Below are positions 58 to 43,591 of a stretch of 64,000 nt of DNA, in pieces (the first letter of the stretch is position 1; every line of letters starts with the position of its first letter). The notes beneath the pieces were generated by a model that worked only from the letters and a program-made list of their open reading frames with translations, did not search any database and had not been told where the DNA came from. This DNA comes from Squalus acanthias (lineage: Eukaryota). The stretch covers positions 17,546,001 through 17,610,000 of the forward strand of contig CM059435.1 in NCBI GenBank assembly GCA_030390025.1. Direction: 5' to 3'. The position numbers were made by a program, and so were the translations under genes.

Positions 58-588
58 TGATGCGGAGATGCCGGTGTTGGACTGGGGTGGACAAAAATGA
101 GAAGTCGCACAACACCAGGTTATAGTCCAACAGATTTATTTGAAATCACAAGCTTTCAGAGCTGTTGCCCCTTCGTCAGGTGAAGTGAAGGAATACGAAT
201 CGGCAAAGCATATATAGACAGAGAACAATGCCTGTGTAGCGTACAATGTCAGACGACTACAGTTAATCTTTCTGACTGCCTTTTATCACACCTCGGCAGA
301 GAAACAATCAGGTCAGGAAGGCATTATATCAAAGACATAGCAAGATACAGCTAAGACAATGAGGTGGGGTCACAGGGGGTCTAATGTGTCAAATGCAGTC
401 TGTATGGAAAACCATAAACTTTAAAATTTTTACTTTTTTTTAACTGGAAATCACATCTGTGAACAAGCCAACGACGACTCGAGTCTGGATGACTCTACGT
501 CATGTAGCGTGACATGAACCCAAGATCCTGGTTGAGGCCGTCCTCATGGGTGCGGAACTTGGCTATCAGTTTCTGCTCGATGATTTTG
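58..588 (-). mobile_element. 5'-truncated Penelope-like element (family A), 3' end
   Basis: 11-bp TSD CTATTAGATCA at 47-57 and 589-599; minus strand 495-587 encodes KIIEQKLIAKFRTHEDGLNQDLGFMSRYMT*, typical of the PLE GIY-YIG C-terminus; same terminus as the element at 29801. Confidence 0.9.
146..183 (-). ncRNA. Minimal type I hammerhead ribozyme motif (PLE-associated)
   Basis: Minus strand reads TCAC-CTGACGA-A-GGGGC-AACA-GCTCT-GAAA-GC-TT-GTGA: conserved core, stem II and 4-bp stem I. Confidence 0.75.
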
Positions 589-6498: not shown

Positions 6499-8201
6499 GG
6501 GGAAAAATTCGGTTGGTTTGCGCCCCGGGGAAATGTGTCCGAACCAGCAACAATGGCAGCAGTCTGTGCTTGCGTGGCCTCAATCTGAGACTGCATGAGA
6601 CCAGTCTGAGATTGGATCACGGCAGCCTTGACTGAATTGCAGCACTAAGCATTTGCGTGGCATCCGCCTGTGCTACAGCGTAGTGCTCCACACTCCTTGC
6701 CAGTGTATCAATGGTTTCGGGTACCCTTCCCATTGCACCCATGAGCTGAGTGTGCATGTCCACCGCCTGGGTGTTCATTTCAGTGATGAGCCACTCCTCC
6801 TCTACGTCCAGTGCAACAGGACTCGCTGGCCTACTCTCCCTCCGGGGAGAAGGCCCCCGAGCTTCCCTATCCCCATCACGATGCTGCAGCCCGCTGGGTC
6901 CCGGAGCTTCACCCTCTTCAGACCCTTCCCCCCTGCTCCCCTCCAGGGAAGACGTGGTCCCAGTGTGGGCATGGGCTTCCTCGGGAGAGGGTGGCGCTGA
7001 TGCTCCGGCTTCCTCTTCCTCCTCGCCTGCGGCTTCGCTCCCACTGGCAGCTTGAGGGCCTGTCTCCTCAGCTGGTGAATCACCATCTGAAAGCAGGGAG
7101 GTACAAGAGTGGCTTTAGCGTGAGGACAGGGGGGCAGTAAGGGAGGAAGGAGTGGAGCGATTTAATAGTTGGATTGAAAGTGTCAAAGGCTGGTGTTGTG
7201 AGGGACAAGTGGAATGAGAGAGGAGAGAAAGCTGATGACCTTACCATTGCTGTCCTGAACAGGGTCGACCTCTCCAGGGGTGATGGGACCGATCACCTGG
7301 CTTGCCACAATCCTGTGGACACGGTCCTCAAGATCGCTGAGGGGTTGCAGCTGAGGCCGCCCTCCACCCGTCAGTTGCTGCTGTCTCCTGTTATGAGATA
7401 GCTTGGCCTGCAAGAAAAAGGACGGCGTCTGAATAAATATACATCCATGGTCTTGCCTGATGTGTCTCCCATAGTTGAATAGCACTTACTGTATGCGTGT
7501 GCGTGTGTGTTTCATGAGAGGGCCATAGGTGTTGGATGAGTGTTGGGTATTGGGGTTTTAAGACCCTCTGGCCATAGAATGAGGTTGAAATGGAGGGATG
7601 GAGAGGTTTTGAAAAAAAGCCACTCGCCCTGACGACCCGAGTGAGGTCGTTGAACTTTTTGCGACATTGAGTATCCTGGGCACCATGCTCCTGGAGGAGA
7701 TGTGCTGAGCCACCTCCCTCCACACTCTTCTGTACTCGCGTGGCAAAGGCCTCCTGCCACTCTAGGGTAGAGTATAGATCTTCTGTGCTCCACCGCGCCA
7801 ATCAGAGCCTCCAAGGCCCGTTCACTGAAGTGCTGAGCTCGTTCTCTCACCCTCTCCATGGTCCTTGGCTGGAAAATGTAGGCACAGGTCTCTCCAGGCC
7901 GAGATTCAAGGCTCCAATGAGCAGGGTGTGGCTGGAGAGCAAGATCGACCCTCCCCTTTAAGAACTGGCTGGCGCCAGTGTGTCTGTGTTCCATCGCTAA
8001 CTGACATCACCTGTGCTGCGCCCGCGCTCTGAGTTAGCGCCTAGCTCCTCGGCCTTTGCACCTTAAGACAGCTGTGCAACGCCTGATTTAGCGCTCCAAT
8101 CACCTCCAGGGGCGATAAAAGCCAAGTTTGCAGTCGGAGGCTAAACTTTGCATCCGGCTGATAATTGCGCCCCAAACGGGGCGATACCGAATTTCTCCCC
8201 C
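6499..8201 (-). mobile_element. Internally deleted Harbinger element retaining the Myb/SANT gene remnant
   Basis: TIRs GGGGAAAAATTCGG / CCGAATTTCTCCCC; minus strand MERVRERAQHFSERALEALIGAVEHRR...QCRKKFNDLTRVVR; same family as 41945-44485. Confidence 0.85.
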
Positions 8202-10616: not shown

Positions 10617-11450
10617 ACATGGCAGATGTAGTATAACGTGGATAAATGTGAAGTTATCCACTCCGGTAGGAAAAACAGAAAGGCAGAGTATTATTTAAAT
10701 GGTGATAGATTGGGAAATGTTGATGTACAGAGGGACTTGGGTCTCCTTGTATACCAGTCACTGAAAGCAAACATGCAGGTGCAGCAAGCAGTTAGGAAGG
10801 CAAATGGTACGTTGGCCTTCATTGCAAGAGCATTTGAGTACAGGAGCAGGGATGTCTTACTACAGTTATACAGGGCCTTGGTGAGACCACACCTGGAGTA
10901 ATGTGTGCAGTTTTGGTCTCCTTACCTAAGAAAGGATATACTTGCCATAGAGGGAGTGCAGCGAAGGTTCACCAGACTGATTCCTGGGATGGCAGGACTG
11001 TCGTATGCAGAGAGATTGGGTCGACTAGGCCTATATTCACTAGAGTTTAGAAGAATGAGAGGGGATCTCATTGAAACGTATAAAATTCTGACAGGGTTAG
11101 ACAGACTGGATGCAGGGAGGATGTTTCTCCTGGCTGGGGGCTCTAGAACGAGGGATCACAGTCTCCGGATACGGGGTAGGACATTTAGGACTGAGATGAG
11201 GAGAAATTTCTTCACTCAGAGGGTGGTGAACCTGTGGAATTCTCTACCACAGAAGGTTGTAGAGGCCAAGTCACTGAATATATTTAAGAAGGAGATAGAT
11301 GGATTTCTAGACACAAAAGGCATCAAGGGGTATGGGGAGAGAGCGGGAATATGGTATTGAGAGAGAGGATCAGCCATGATCATATTGAATGGCGGAGCAG
11401 GCTCGAATGGCCTACTCCTGCTCCAATTTTTGTATGTTCTATGTTTCTAT
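10617..11450 (+). mobile_element. CR1 LINE, 3' part
   Basis: KCEVIH.GRKN...QRDLG...LYRALVRPHLE, LEFRRMRGDLIETYKIL, FFTQRVVNLWNSLP; TATGTTTC-type tail. Confidence 0.95.
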
Positions 11451-27727: not shown

Positions 27728-29888
27728 AATATCAACAGTTTATGATGAAACCTTGTACTATCAGCCACTTCACAAATGGGCATGTTTACAGTATTTCGGT
27801 ATCACTTTTTCCAAAAAGAAGTTCCTGCCCCTTGGTCCTTTGGTGATATTTCTGACAATGGCCAACTCTAAGTGTAAGCACTGGCAATGACAGTACATAG
27901 TGCATGTGTGTCAAAGTGTGTGTCAAATTATAAAATTGTATCTATCATCCTGCAGATCTGACTGATCTATGCTTACCACATGAATGTTAGTCACATCGTT
28001 ACAACTTGTATCCCTAGATCCTTTTGCTCTTCTACCCCATTCAGTTTCTCATTTTCTGAGGTGTAGGTAATGTTTCTGTCTTTCCTGTCAAAGTGCAGCA
28101 GCTCACATTTATCTGTTAAAGTTCATTTGCCACCTAACTGCCAGTCTGCAGGTTTTCTGTGGTTAAACCATTCTGTCTGGAGAGGGAAAAAATGTTTTTT
28201 TTTAAGTGCTGAATGGTTTGCCAACACTGACCACAATTCTGTAAACAACCTAGAAAGGAAAATCAATGTAGTGTCCAAATTCAACACTGTCTTTGTAGTG
28301 TAGTAGAGTACTGCCTAGCCAATACTTGGCAGTGACTATAGAAGGCTAGTACCAAAATGGTTGAGTGACAGTGCTTCCGAAAAGTCATGTGCTTGACCAT
28401 GTCTATTTAAAAGACAGCAAGGTGGAATCATTACAGCTGTGACTCCTAAGCTTCCAGCAAATGTACAGCAACCTTTTGCATAGGCTCTGTGAGTAGTACC
28501 ACCAATAATTATTTTTCATATGAATGACGACTTTTGCTACTGACATTATTGTTGTGATTTTGTGTTCATCTGTATTCAATTGTGTGATTGTTTCAGTTTT
28601 AGCCGAGCAGTCTGATCTAACCCTGCTGAATTGCTATCGATTTAAGACCAGAGTGCAAGAGCTGGCCACTTCAAAAGATTTTTTTTAATTGATTTCTCTC
28701 ACTGAGATTATTTCGCGACATTCGATCTTATCCAGCTGTTTCCCATTTACCTAGTGCTGATTGTTTATAAAGTGGCTGTGTTGCAGATTTTCTGGAGAAA
28801 TATAGAAGTTCAAGATTTTGATTTTGTGGAACTTGTAAAGATCATGTTGCTTCTCGGGGGAGGGGGATGAACAATATACGTTTAAGAGAATACACAATAT
28901 TATTCTCCATCGGTATTAAATGGGCAATTTACTGAGCATGACAGGGTGCTGAAGTTTTAGCCACAGTTTAATCCTGCACGTGACCCTCAAGTCCTAGTTG
29001 GCTGCCTTGGAACAAACCAATATTGCAGCGGGGGCCTCAAGTGGGTGTTGGGCCCCTTATTTCACATGCAAATGGCCCAATGCCTGTTTTTTAGCCTTCA
29101 CCAATGTAGCAGGCGTCACATTTCCAGTTTGTCATTAGCATGCACTTCCTGCCCGCCATATTGAAAGCTTAGGAGGCCGTTTAGCGCCCTAAAAAGCAGG
29201 CTCTGTGTGGCCAAATTTCTAGGCTGTGGTTTTTAGACTTTATTTTAAAGTGAGGCAGTATATCTCTACAACATTTTGAAAACAAAAGGATAGTCCTCTT
29301 TTTTTGCTGAATTTTTCAGTCTTTTTTGAATGTTTCTGCTGTGCGATCTCAGGTTATCTTTTATAACATTGCAAATATCCCTATTTCAATCCTGGCATTC
29401 TGTAACATTCATCATTTCAGATTGTGTAGCTGGCTGCCTTTCGCCATCCCTTTTTTATAATATAATGCAGTTCTAAAGTATGAATTTGTCTTATTTCATA
29501 GGATGGCTGTTGTGAAAGGAGAGATTACGGGGGGAATTTTGATGTTGAAGAGCGCATGCGTTCAGGTGCGGGTGGAGAGTTTCGTTTTTACGAAAATGTC
29601 AGCGTGTCTGGAAGCCGGCTCCAACCTGCCATCTTCCAGGTTTAATTCAGGCCCGTTCGGCAGGTTACACATAACCCCCTTCGGGAGAGGCGGGTTACAA
29701 ATTTAAATATGTAAATAATTTCATTGCAGCGATTATTTATTTCCACATCCTTTCAAATTTAACGGTGCATGCACAGGTTTCCCGGGCTTCTTGAAAGTCA
29801 TGATGCGGAGATGCCGGTGTTGGACTGGGGTGGACAAAATTGAGAGGTCGCACAACACCAGGTTATAGTCCAACAGTTTTATTTGAAA

Positions 29889-29930
29889 TCACAAGCTTTC
29901 GGAGCTATCGATTGCTCCTTCCTCAGGTGA
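29889..29930 (-). ncRNA. Minimal hammerhead ribozyme motif (left arm)
   Basis: Reverse complement of 30346-30387. Confidence 0.78.
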
Positions 29931-30345
29931 AGTAAATTAGATACAGAATCGCCAAAGCATATATAGATAGAGAACAAAGCATGTGTACCTTACAATTGCA
30001 GACCACTAAATTAAATCATCCTGACTATCTGCCGAGGTGTGATAAAGTTAATTAAGTCAGCCAGGAAGGTACCACATCAAAGACATAGCAAGATACAACT
30101 GAGACAATGAGGTGTAGTCGCAGGGGTTCTAACGTGTGACACGTTAGAACCCCTGCGACTACACCTCGTTGTCTCAGTTGTATCTTGCTATGTCTTTGAT
30201 GTGGTACCTTCCTGGCTGACTTAATTAACTTTATCACACCTCGGCAGATAGTCAGGATGATTTAATTTAGTGGTCTGCAATTGTAAGGTACACATGCTTT
30301 GTTCTCTATCTATATATGCTTTGGCGATTCTGTATCTAATTTACT

Positions 30346-30387
30346 TCACCTGAGGAAGGAGCAATCGATAGCTCCGAAAGCTTGTGA
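30346..30387 (+). ncRNA. Minimal hammerhead ribozyme motif (right arm)
   Basis: TCAC-CTGAGGA-A-GGAGC-AATCGATA-GCTCC-GAAA-GC-TT-GTGA. Confidence 0.78.
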
Positions 30388-30585
30388 TTTCAAATAAAAC
30401 TGTTGGACTATAACCTGGTGTTGTGCGACCTCTCATTCTTGAAAGTCACCATTGAAACCAAGGCGAGAACACAAAGTAAATACATGGGGCTTATTTAACA
30501 ATCAGGCAAATGCTGCAGTGGTTTGTTCAGAGTACTTGTGGTGAGAGGTTAGTTTCTACACTTTGGACATTTTGCGACTCCGATC

Positions 30586-31193
30586 ATATGGGAGGCACCT
30601 TGGATGCCTTAGATTGGACCGCGGTCGCGGATCAAGATGGCCATCAGCAGCATCATCGATGTGCAGCTGGTGTGCAATCACATGAAAAAGTTTATGCAGG
30701 TGTGCGCCAGATTCTCTGCGAGCTGCTGTGATGCTTTCATCCTGTGGCAATCCAAGCTCCCTCTGCTCTTTGGACCTGCAAGCAGACTTAAGGGGTGGCT
30801 GCTAGGAGAAGAGAGATACCCCTTCAAGCTTGGCTGATGACGCCCATGAGCAACCCAACCAATGAAGCCCGAGAGCTGTACACAGATAGTCATATGACTA
30901 CCAGATGTGTCATTAAACAAGCGATCGGCATGCTCACGATCCGCTTCAGGTGCCTGGACAGAACTGGAGGCGCCAGCCAGGGTCTAGAGAAAGTTTGTGG
31001 TGTGTATTCGGGTTAGTACAACATTGCGCAGCAGCGAGGATTGGAGCTGAAGGAGGAACAGCAGCCATCATCTGCGGACAAATCCGAGGAGGAGGAGGAG
31101 GAGGAGGAGGAAAAGGGTGACTCCATCACAGCATCAGCTGCTCACATTGCTGCCCAGGATGCCAGGGATTCCTTTATAGCTGTAAGGTTCAGT
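30586..31193 (+). pseudogene. Harbinger transposase remnant (internally deleted, frameshifted)
   Basis: VQLVCNHMKKFMQVCARF...DAFIL...GWLLG...WLMTP...TRCVIKQAIGMLTIRFRCLD; acidic (GAG)n tail. Confidence 0.88.
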
Positions 31194-38607: not shown

Positions 38608-39690
38608 AACATAGAAACATAGAACATAGAAAAATAAGAGCAGGAGTAGGCCATTCGGCCCTTCGAGCCTGCTCCGCCATTCAATATGATCATGGCTGAT
38701 CCTCTATCTCAATACCATATTTCCGCTCTCTCCCCATACCCCTTGATGCCTTTCGTGTCTAGAAATCTATCTATCTCCTTCTTAAATATATTCAGTGACT
38801 TGGCCTCCACAGCTGTCTGTGGTAGAGAATTCCACAGGTTCACCACCCTCTGAGTGAAGAAATTTCTCCTCATCTAAGTCCTAAATGTCCTACCCCGTAT
38901 CCTGAGACTGTGACCCCTCGTTCTAGATCCCCCCCAGTCAGAGGAAACATCCTCCCTGCATCCAGTCTGTCTAACCCTGTCAGAATTTTATACGTTTCAA
39001 TGAGATCCCCTCTCATTCTTCTAAACTCTAGTGAATACAGGCCTAGTCGACCCAATCTCTCCTCATACGACAGTCCTGCCATCCCAGGAATCAGTCTGGT
39101 GAACCTTCGCTGCACTCCCTCTATGGCAAGTATATCCTTTCTTAGGTAAGGAGACCAAAACTGCACACATTACTCCAGGTGTGGTCTCACCAAGGCCCTG
39201 TATAACTGTAGTAAGACATCCTTGCTCCTGTACTCAAATGCTCTTGCAATGAAGGCCAACATACCATTTGCCTTCCTAACTGCTTGCTGCACCTGCATGT
39301 TTGCTTTCAGTGACTGGTGTACAAGGACACCCAGGTCCCTCTGTACATCAACATTTCCCAATCTATCACCATTTAAATAATACTCTGCCTTTCTGTTTTT
39401 CCTACCGGAGTGGATAACTTCACATTTATCCACGTTATACTACATCTGCCACTCACTCAACTTGTCTAAATCGCCTTCAAGCCTCTTTGCATCCTCCTCA
39501 CAACTCACAATCCCACCTAGTTTCGTGTCGTCAGCAAACTTGGAAATATTACATTTGGTTCCCTCATCCAAATCATTGATATATATATTGTGAATAGCTG
39601 AGGCCCAAGCACTGATCCCTGCGGTACCCCATTAGTCACCGCCTGCCACCCCAAAAAAGACCCATTTATTCCTACTCTCTGTTTTCTGTC
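38608..39690 (-). mobile_element. CR1 LINE 3' part
   Basis: Peptides nearly identical to the copy at 10617-11450. Confidence 0.95.
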
Positions 39691-42864: not shown

Positions 42865-43049
42865 TACAATGTCAAAAAAAGTTCAATGACCTCACTTGGG
42901 TCGTCAGGGTGAGTGGCTTTTTTTCAATACCTCTCCATCCCTCCATCTCAACCTCACTCTATGGCCAGAGGGTCTTAAAACCCCAATGCCCAACACTCAT
43001 CCAACACCTATGGCCCTCTCATGAAACACAGACGCACATTCCACACTTT

Positions 43050-43481
43050 GCATACAGTAAGGGCTATTCACCTATGGGAGGCACATCAGGCAAGACCATG
43101 GCTGCATACAGTAAGGGCTATTCACCTATGGGAGGCACATCAGGCAAGACCATGGCTGCATACAGTAAGGGCTATTCACCTATGGGAGTCACATCAGGCA
43201 AGACCATGGTTGCATACAGTAAGGGCTATTCACCTATGGGAGGCACATCAGGCAAGACCATGGCTGCATACAGTAAGGGCTATTCACCTATGGGAGGCAC
43301 ATCAGGCAAGACCATGGCTGCATACAGTAAGGGCTATTCACCTATGGGAGGCACATCAGGCAAGACCATGGCTGCATACAGTAAGGGCTATTCACCTATG
43401 GGAGGCACATCAGGCAAGACCATGGCTGCATACAGTAAGGGCTATTCACCTATGCGAGGCACATCAGGCAAGACCATGGCT
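43050..43481. repeat. Minisatellite, 8 x 54 bp
   Basis: Unit GCATACAGTAAGGGCTATTCACCTATGGGAGGCACATCAGGCAAGACCATGGCT; only 3 substitutions seen; no spacers. Confidence 0.97.
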
Positions 43482-43591
43482 GTATATTTACTCCGACGCC
43501 GCCCTTTTTCTTGCAGGCCAAGCTATCTCCTAATAGGAGACAGCAGCAACGGACGGGTGGAGGGCGGCCTCAGCTGCAACCCCTCAGCGAT

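What the first reader, a model, noticed from the sequence alone, without database searches (positions are those of the whole stretch)
29788..30448. 595-bp near-perfect palindromic Penelope insertion with a hammerhead ribozyme on each strand
Seen: two 297-bp arms (29841-30137 and 30139-30435) separated by 1 nt, with one mismatch noticed. The 635-bp insert is bounded by a 13-bp TSD, so it arose in a single event. Each arm carries an intact minimal hammerhead motif and no coding sequence. Known: PLEs form inverted pseudo-LTR ends and carry minimal hammerheads, and long perfect palindromes are usually unstable. Inference: a snapshot of fold-back second-strand synthesis. Transcription in either direction would give a ~300-bp hairpin (siRNA or ADAR substrate) that would sequester the ribozyme.
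Basis: partly seen in the sequence, partly recalled or inferred. Interest (0 to 1): 0.7.

Follow-up and report, generated by a model that had tools for sequence, protein, structure and literature searches.

The report
Twin-primed Penelope mirror insertion, shark
This 635-base mirror-image insert is real but is one of many left by a Penelope-type jumping gene in a shark-like genome, and 130 sister inserts indicate that both halves were likely copied from the element's RNA, starting at two cuts in a symmetric target site, rather than one half folding back to copy itself.

Summary
In detail: 297-bp arms with one mismatch, a 1-nt centre, a 13-bp TSD, a 40-nt one-sided tail and a minimal hammerhead on each strand. 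Both outer junctions appear in short-read contigs; the centre was not seen. It is a 5'-truncated insertion of a young, abundant Neptune-like Penelope element, in a published layout. It is not exceptional: 14 of 130 sister insertions have arms at least as long and spacers of 10 nt or less.

Simple fold-back is not supported. Of 130 insertions, 124 have one tail arm and one tail-less arm, and the tail-less arm is the longer in 75 (tail arm in 39). Some tail stubs do not overlap the other arm. This centre cannot form a primer hairpin as it stands. Insertions sit in a two-fold symmetric site (CCCTGGS | 12-14 bp | SCCAGGG).

Best model: both strands are nicked, both nicks prime on the element's RNA, and the two cDNAs are joined head to head by microhomology. 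The hammerhead is an inherited passenger, and no A-to-I scars were found. This scan noted the same layout, twin priming and symmetric target before, in this genome and others. I did not find them in print.

The parts
29788..29800 (.). Left copy of the 13-bp target-site duplication; its last 4 nt (GTCA) also match the element at the tail-side priming point
29781..29787 (.). Left half-site of the symmetric target motif (CCCGGGC against family CCCTGGS)
   Evidence: score near the median of insertion sites; 2.8% of control positions score as high
29801..29840 (-). 40-nt PLE 'tail', present on this side only; ends at the ORF start codon (29801-29799)
   Evidence: tail described in PMC11167929, PMC3846280, PMC8557442
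29841..30137 (-). Tail-side arm: 3' part of the pseudo-LTR, sense on the - strand, truncated at family position 337
29889..29930 (-). Minimal type I hammerhead motif, - strand copy
29960..29965 (-). TATA-like box facing outward (leftwards); promoter role inferred
30108..30108 (+). Only difference between the arms, a CpG C>T change
30137..30138 (.). Head-to-head junction: arms end at family positions 337 and 339 with 1 nt of microhomology
30139..30435 (+). Tail-less arm: same pseudo-LTR piece, sense on the + strand, starting at family position 41
30311..30316 (+). TATA-like box facing outward (rightwards); inferred start site about 30340-30352
30346..30387 (+). Minimal type I hammerhead: helix I TCAC/GTGA, CTGAGGA, extra A, helix II GGAGC/GCTCC, GAAA, palindromic AAGCTT in place of helix III
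   Evidence: features as in PMC4209133
30393..30398 (+). AATAAA downstream of the hammerhead (mirror copy at 29878-29883, - strand)
30436..30448 (.). Right copy of the TSD
30448..30455 (.). Right half-site of the symmetric target motif (ACCATTG against family SCCAGGG)
   Evidence: 1.5% of controls score as high in the 12-bp register, 18.5% in the 13-bp register
30792..31013 (+). Piece of the decayed Harbinger-type transposase copy that received the insertion
   Evidence: DDE_Tnp_4, E 5.6e-4, below the curated cut-off

Best explanation
This is a dead, 5'-truncated insertion of a young Neptune-like Penelope element, whose two arms were likely made by separate reverse transcription from the two nicks of one staggered cut and then likely joined head to head.

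Shown: the layout, the 12-14-bp duplication, the symmetric target motif, the one-tail rule, shared alleles between arms, and junction microhomology.

Inferred steps: (1) the GIY-YIG protein, probably as a dimer, binds CCCTGGS-N12/14-SCCAGGG and nicks each strand just 5' of SCCA, leaving 3' overhangs. (2) Each 3' end primes on the element's RNA with about 1-3 nt of pairing, one at the tail start (t about 0) and one at the internal site (t about 30-47). (3) Both copy the same RNA, or RNAs of one source locus, and often stop at the same place, the RNA's 5' end. (4) The two cDNA ends are joined through 0-4 nt of microhomology or a short patch, and the second strands are filled in.

Here the two cDNAs stopped 2 nt apart, giving a 1-nt centre. 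The hammerheads are passengers of the pseudo-LTR; one lies on each strand only because the pseudo-LTR end is inverted.
For: One tail arm plus one tail-less arm in 97 of 99 insertions and 27 of 31 new ones. Tail-less arm longer in 59 against 33 (p 0.009) and 16 against 6. Tail stubs of 7, 7 and about 35 nt (L187, L108, L192) lie opposite arms that begin at t 30-46, so they cannot be copies of the other arm. TSD of 12-14 bp in 86 of 99 and 25 of 31. Symmetric motif after collapsing 88 sites into 56 unrelated ones: TGG left in 29 of 56, CCA right in 30 of 56, against a control mean of 3.2. It recurs in 20 single-arm insertions (TG 18, CA 17) and in 27 new ones (TG 23, CA 19); those two sets were not collapsed for hot spots. 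Arms differ at 7 of 536 and 2 of 264 subfamily-diagnostic positions, against 35% between insertions. Arm ends within 3 nt of each other in 17 of 76 junctions against 5.8 expected; among junctions with an inserted patch, 4 of 17 end within 1 nt against 0.71 expected (p 0.003). 13 of 91 patch-free junctions, this one included, allow no primer hairpin. Blunt joins are 13% against 58% by chance. 23 of 99 arms stop at t 123-136, just downstream of the TATA box (4 are tandem copies of one insertion). In vitro, a Poseidon protein cleaves and extends both strands and starts at the two tail ends; it is predicted to be a dimer (PMC11167929).
Against: 78 of 91 patch-free junctions are also compatible with a hairpin primer, and one junction (228/243, 4-bp stem, 11-nt loop) recurs in 4 independent insertions. 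Shared alleles do not separate 'same RNA' from 'same cDNA', 'same source locus' or later gene conversion. A 2-nt CA stutter would make this centre foldable, as it differs by just that from two sister junctions. 3 of 31 new insertions start at the tail on both sides, and 3 of 130 on neither. Samples were picked by exact motifs, partly for short spacers. 46 of 100 hits in the unselected sample lay outside resolved two-arm insertions. PAc prefers AT-rich ATT sites and starts without homology in vitro, unlike the pattern here. No biochemistry exists for this family in my calls.
Confidence: 0.62

Rival explanations
1. Two nicks prime, but only one long cDNA is made. It snaps back on itself through a small stem and copies itself, and the new sense strand anneals to a short cDNA from the other nick, which supplies or omits the tail.
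For: Explains the one-tail rule with either arm longer, the shared alleles, the excess of near-equal arms, and the recurring 4-bp-stem junction. 78 of 91 patch-free junctions permit a stem. Self-annealing with small hairpins is proposed for L1-induced inverted duplications (10.1101/2024.12.14.628481, passages).
Against: 13 of 91 junctions permit no hairpin, this one included. 8 of 30 patch-bearing junctions have arms ending within 1 nt of each other across a patch of 3-48 nt, which two free ends explain and snap-back does not. Spacers reach 2.3 kb.
Confidence: 0.25
2. One reading: a single primed cDNA folds back, and second-strand synthesis returns to the target.
For: Self-priming was proposed from junction palindromes in rotifer Penelope elements (PMC3846280, passages). 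Arms share alleles.
Against: It predicts that the tail arm is always the longer; it is the shorter in 75 of 124 and here. It cannot make tail stubs that do not overlap the other arm. It does not predict a symmetric target.
Confidence: 0.04
3. The insert was copied whole from a palindromic transcript of an existing mirror-image copy, as a non-autonomous unit.
For: Two sister loci share one identical centre near this one (L032, L033). An earlier scan note reports an edited sister copy (e1-9073809; that locus was not examined here).
Against: Junctions are scattered over the element, and the recurring one occurs with the tail on either arm. This centre occurs once among the 9 in its neighbourhood. 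0 of 130 insertions carry 3 or more A>G or T>C changes on one strand.
Confidence: 0.06
4. Assembly or read fold-back artefact.
For: No listed contig crossed the centre.
Against: TSD, one-sided tail and a CpG difference between the arms. Both outer junctions are present in short-read contigs. The structure follows family-wide rules.
Confidence: 0.03

Closest known systems
EN+ Penelope-like insertion units with an inverted 5'-truncated copy and a one-sided tail (Adineta Pen2a_Av, PMC3846280; general scheme in PMC8557442; passages read)
   Same: Head-to-head pseudo-LTR ends, 30-40-bp tail at one end, TSD, junction palindromes, TATA box in the pseudo-LTR
   Different: Published TSDs there are 8-10 bp, with AT-rich or microsatellite targets, and the inversion is read as self-priming. 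Here the TSD is 12-14 bp inside a GC-rich symmetric motif, and the tail statistics favour priming at both nicks.
PAc, Poseidon of Anolis carolinensis (PMC11167929; parts 1-2 of 4 read, 3 text supplements searched without hits)
   Same: Two reverse-transcription starts that bound the tail; both strands cleaved and extended; hammerhead near the ORF start
   Different: PAc prefers ATT and starts without homology in vitro; its ORF begins inside the hammerhead. In the parts read, the paper does not derive the inverted arm from the two primed ends. This family has a CX4CX2C linker, and its ATG lies at the tail end.
Minimal PLE hammerheads (PMC4209133; parts 1-2 of 4 read)
   Same: Core boxes, extra base after A9, G10.1-C11.1 pair, 4-bp helix I, palindromic 15.2-16.2; the paper already notes pairs 100-700 bp apart on opposite strands
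   Different: Helix II is 5 bp against 7-8 bp in Schistosoma; activity untested here
L1 twin priming (model recalled; named in passages of 10.1101/2024.12.14.628481)
   Same: The second nick primes on the same RNA, and two cDNAs are joined in inverted orientation
   Different: In L1 the second primer lands far upstream, so the pieces do not duplicate each other, and it is a minority outcome (recalled). Here both primers land about 38 nt apart at the RNA's 3' end, so the arms duplicate each other.

Membership tests
EN+ Penelope-like element | Single ORF with RT followed by a C-terminal GIY-YIG endonuclease | tested here: met
   Sister copies L077 and L097 carry 858- and 877-codon frames. RVT_1 E 2e-9. 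GIY-YIG E 7e-4, below the cut-off; several relatives carry PF01541. The insert itself holds only the start codon.
EN+ Penelope-like element | Pseudo-LTR formed by partial tandem, direct or inverted | tested here: met
   L097 has a 141-nt direct repeat upstream of the ORF plus an inverted copy; the insert is two inverted pseudo-LTR ends
EN+ Penelope-like element | 30-40-bp tail at one end | tested here: met
   40 nt here; 124 of 130 insertions
EN+ Penelope-like element | RT phylogeny within PLEs | not tested
   No tree built; homologues are 92% identical shark proteins and more distant animal proteins
Neptune/Nematis clade | CX2-5CxxC linker between RT and endonuclease (PMC8557442) | tested here: met
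   CHGKLCKTC in L077 and L097; Neptune against Nematis not resolved
Minimal type I hammerhead of PLEs | CUGANGA and GAAA boxes, extra base after A9, G10.1-C11.1, palindromic 15.2-16.2, short helix I | tested here: met
   core kept across older subfamilies while loop II varies
Minimal type I hammerhead of PLEs | Self-cleavage as a dimer or with protein help | not testable with these tools
   Single motifs were inactive in vitro in PMC4209133; PAc's needs the protein (PMC11167929)
Non-LTR retrozyme | Tandem head-to-tail monomers with hammerheads on one strand (abstract of 10.64898/2026.07.22.740005) | tested here: not met
   Two inverted copies, one motif per strand
Fold-back (self-primed) insertion | First-made arm longer than its copy by a stem plus a loop of 3 nt or more | tested here: not met
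   Arms end 2 nt apart with 1 nt shared, tail arm shorter; met only if a 2-nt stutter is assumed

The most novel reading that the evidence does not exclude
Penelope-like elements integrate by a symmetric, two-ended form of target-primed reverse transcription as their normal route. A GIY-YIG/RT dimer reads a bipartite palindromic site, cuts it with a 12-14-nt stagger, and primes both ends on one RNA at the two tail boundaries. The two cDNAs are then fused head to head. This single scheme would explain the inverted pseudo-LTR, the one-sided tail and the fixed TSD, and it supplies a defined target sequence for reconstitution.
Probability: 0.55. Interest if true: 0.65.

Novelty: new member of a known kind. 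Interest (0 to 1): 0.42.

Why it matters
The insert itself is ordinary: a non-coding stub inside a dead DNA transposon, one of probably hundreds of near-spacerless palindromes of its subfamily (9 among the 33 two-arm insertions holding 54 of the first 100 hits, of 4,041 hits in all). Its value is as one record in a large natural experiment. How Penelope-like elements, the sister group of telomerase, form inverted ends and tails is still described as unresolved (PMC8557442, PMC11167929). The family gives a concrete target site, nick positions and two priming sites that can go straight into the published in vitro assay. It also shows that a vertebrate genome tolerates many 0.5-1.4-kb near-perfect palindromes.

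Tried and rejected
A DNA search of the genome with one arm was empty because common words are skipped; patterns were used instead. Rfam found no family at gathering score. A search of solved structures with the endonuclease region gave nothing meaningful. Prediction of a homodimer of the N-terminal 330 residues was not available, so there is no verdict on dimerisation.

Expression: no RNA holder listed. The one guessed-RNA run laid (X7) shows only multi-copy family sequence and says nothing on this locus. The centre was not among the listed contig pieces, which proves nothing either way.

Rejected readings: two source RNAs of different subfamilies (suggested by an A/T tract in L011; only 9 of 800 diagnostic positions differ, 4 of them in that tract). 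Copying from an edited hairpin RNA (0 of 130). The hammerhead cut as the usual truncation point: the predicted cut is at t about 92; the sample cannot see ends below t 121, and only a few pair ends lie at 90-99, so this is untested rather than excluded. Homogenisation of spacerless arms: arm divergence 0.26% for spacers up to 10 nt against 0.39% for spacers over 30 nt, p 0.06, inconclusive. One search was an empty search and was not used.

Rows dropped: 3 tandem copies of one insertion (102 to 99). Of 59 loci, 50 were listed and fetched, 48 resolved and 45 entered the uniformity test. Of 37 loci, 35 were fetched, 1 was already counted, 3 were unresolved and 31 were used.

Literature: 9 searches listed no paper stating a symmetric PLE target or two-ended priming as the source of the inversion. 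Older subscription papers on Drosophila Penelope, the figure supplements of PMC11167929 and bioRxiv supplements were not seen and may bear on this.

Full report
Observation. The window lies on contig C11 of a 3.71-Gb genome; the family protein is 92% identical to shark proteins. The arms 29841-30137 and 30139-30435 pair at 296 of 297 positions around G30138, and a 13-bp TSD encloses 635 bp. The extra 40 nt on the left are the Penelope tail. In a near-complete sister copy they run into the ORF's ATG, and the TSD's last 4 nt match the element there. Short-read contigs cross the left junction in runs of two studies and the right junction in one run, each without differences; no listed contig crossed the centre. 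The insertion interrupts a decayed Harbinger-type transposase copy.

Family. A terminal 26-mer has 97,107 exact hits. Two subfamily-specific motifs have 3,889 and 4,041, many as opposite-strand pairs. Sister copies encode an RT (E 2e-9), a CX4CX2C linker and a weak GIY-YIG match: a Neptune-like element by the motif given in PMC8557442 (passages). An inverted 5'-truncated copy with a one-sided tail is the published layout (PMC8557442; PMC3846280, passages). Minimal hammerheads 100-700 bp apart on opposite strands were noted in PMC4209133 (parts 1-2 of 4).

Not exceptional. Nine loci, this one included, turn within the same 30 nt. Fifty-nine and 37 loci have both arms ending just past family positions 217 and 498. 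Of 130 resolved two-arm insertions, 25 have spacers of 3 nt or less, and 14 have spacers of 10 nt or less with both arms at least as long as here. One is 1,414 bp with no difference in 679 positions compared. These samples were partly chosen for short spacers. In the unselected sample, 9 of 33 two-arm insertions had spacers of 10 nt or less.

Two primers. 97 of 99 and 27 of 31 insertions have exactly one arm starting at the tail (t about 0) and one starting at t about 30-47. These match in kind the two initiation sites that bound the tail in vitro for the anole element, whose protein cleaves and extends both strands (PMC11167929, parts 1-2 of 4). The tail-less arm is the longer in 59 against 33 and 16 against 6 cases. 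Tail stubs of 7, 7 and about 35 nt face arms that begin further in. A single cDNA folding back cannot produce either pattern. In this insertion the family continues GTGTCAAAAG; the tail arm stops at GTGT and the tail-less arm at GTGTCA, sharing one base.

Symmetric target. TSDs are 12-14 bp in 86 of 99 and 25 of 31. After 88 sites were collapsed into 56 unrelated ones, TGG stood left of the TSD in 29 and CCA right of it in 30, against 3.2 in shifted controls, with 14-15 bp between them. The half-site profile reads CCCTGGS. The motif recurs in 20 single-arm and 27 further two-arm insertions. One site in another repeat was hit 14 times. This locus matches on both sides. The inference is two nicks, each just 5' of SCCA, leaving 3' overhangs, most simply made by a dimer; a structure prediction of the dimer was not available. 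Both outer ends share on average 1.6-1.75 nt with the target (88 sites), suggesting slight primer pairing.

One template, coupled ends. Arms of one insertion differ at 7 of 536 and 2 of 264 diagnostic positions, against 35% between insertions. Near-equal arm lengths are in excess: 4 of 17 long pairs within 20 nt against 0.64 expected, and 17 of 76 within 3 nt against 5.8. Junction microhomology is enriched (blunt 13% against 58%), and 30 of 130 junctions carry a patch of 3 nt or more. Eight of those 30 have arms ending within 1 nt of each other, and 13 of 91 patch-free junctions allow no primer hairpin. Twenty-three of 99 arms stop at t 123-136, about four times the rate of the next interval and just downstream of the TATA box. 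This fits run-off at an RNA 5' end. These points favour two cDNAs that end together and are joined. Against this, 78 of 91 junctions also allow a stem, one 4-bp-stem junction recurs four times, and a 2-nt stutter would make this centre foldable. Snap-back plus annealing therefore keeps about a quarter of the odds.

Function. The hammerhead has every feature listed for minimal PLE motifs. Such motifs were inactive as monomers (PMC4209133) or needed the protein (PMC11167929). A transcript of this insert holds only one sense copy, so the cis dimer cannot form (inference). Read-through RNA would be a 297-bp hairpin, but transcripts from the outward TATA boxes would likely start beyond most of each arm and stay single-stranded (inference). 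The single mismatch is a CpG change, and 0 of 130 insertions show an A-to-I cluster. Nothing here indicates a selected function.

Verdict. This is a real, ordinary member of a known kind. The family-level pattern is a testable account of an unresolved step, and I did not find it in nine literature searches; the older Penelope papers and figure supplements were not seen. My two-nick reading and the target motif came, before I opened the scan's notes. Those notes report the same layout 195 times, and twin priming and a symmetric target in this and other genomes; they are not counted as support. Two of them gave leads that I tested (start-site pile-up; RNA editing).

Noticed in passing
window 58-588: Older single-arm copy of the same Penelope family (about 80% identical), with an 11-bp TSD at 47-57 and 589-599. 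It also lies in a Harbinger-like copy, at the same site type as L167.
   Followed up: partly
L014, L079, L080, L146, L195, L201 and others; L023, L087, L148, L212; L104, L145, L170, L185, L193, L227: Hot spots: the same site in other repeats was hit independently 14, 8, 4 and 4 times with different junctions. The host repeats were not identified.
   Followed up: partly
L097:478-6654: 6.2-kb insertion with two inverted arms of about 2.9 kb (99.3% alike) and a near-complete ORF with a tandem junction; L070 and L078 hold 2.2- and 1.4-kb near-perfect palindromes.
   Followed up: partly
L162:408-1540: Tail-less arm followed by a direct-orientation tail piece (t 3-35) and then an inverted 13-nt tail stub before the TSD, suggesting a template jump plus a second priming.
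   Followed up: no
L233 (C1 83.40-83.41 Mb): One short palindromic insertion repeated four times within a tandem array of about 1.5-2.6-kb units.
   Followed up: no
L237, L238, L190: Arms end within 1 nt of each other across patches of 25, 48 and 36 nt. The patches appear copied from elsewhere in the element (tail-like in L237), judged by eye.
   Followed up: no
window 42941-43588: 54-bp tandem repeat inside a region that forms a long inverted pair with 7331-8158.
   Followed up: no
window 10620-11412 and 38657-39451: Inverted pair of CR1-like fragments (label recalled), 95-98% alike, 27 kb apart.
   Followed up: no
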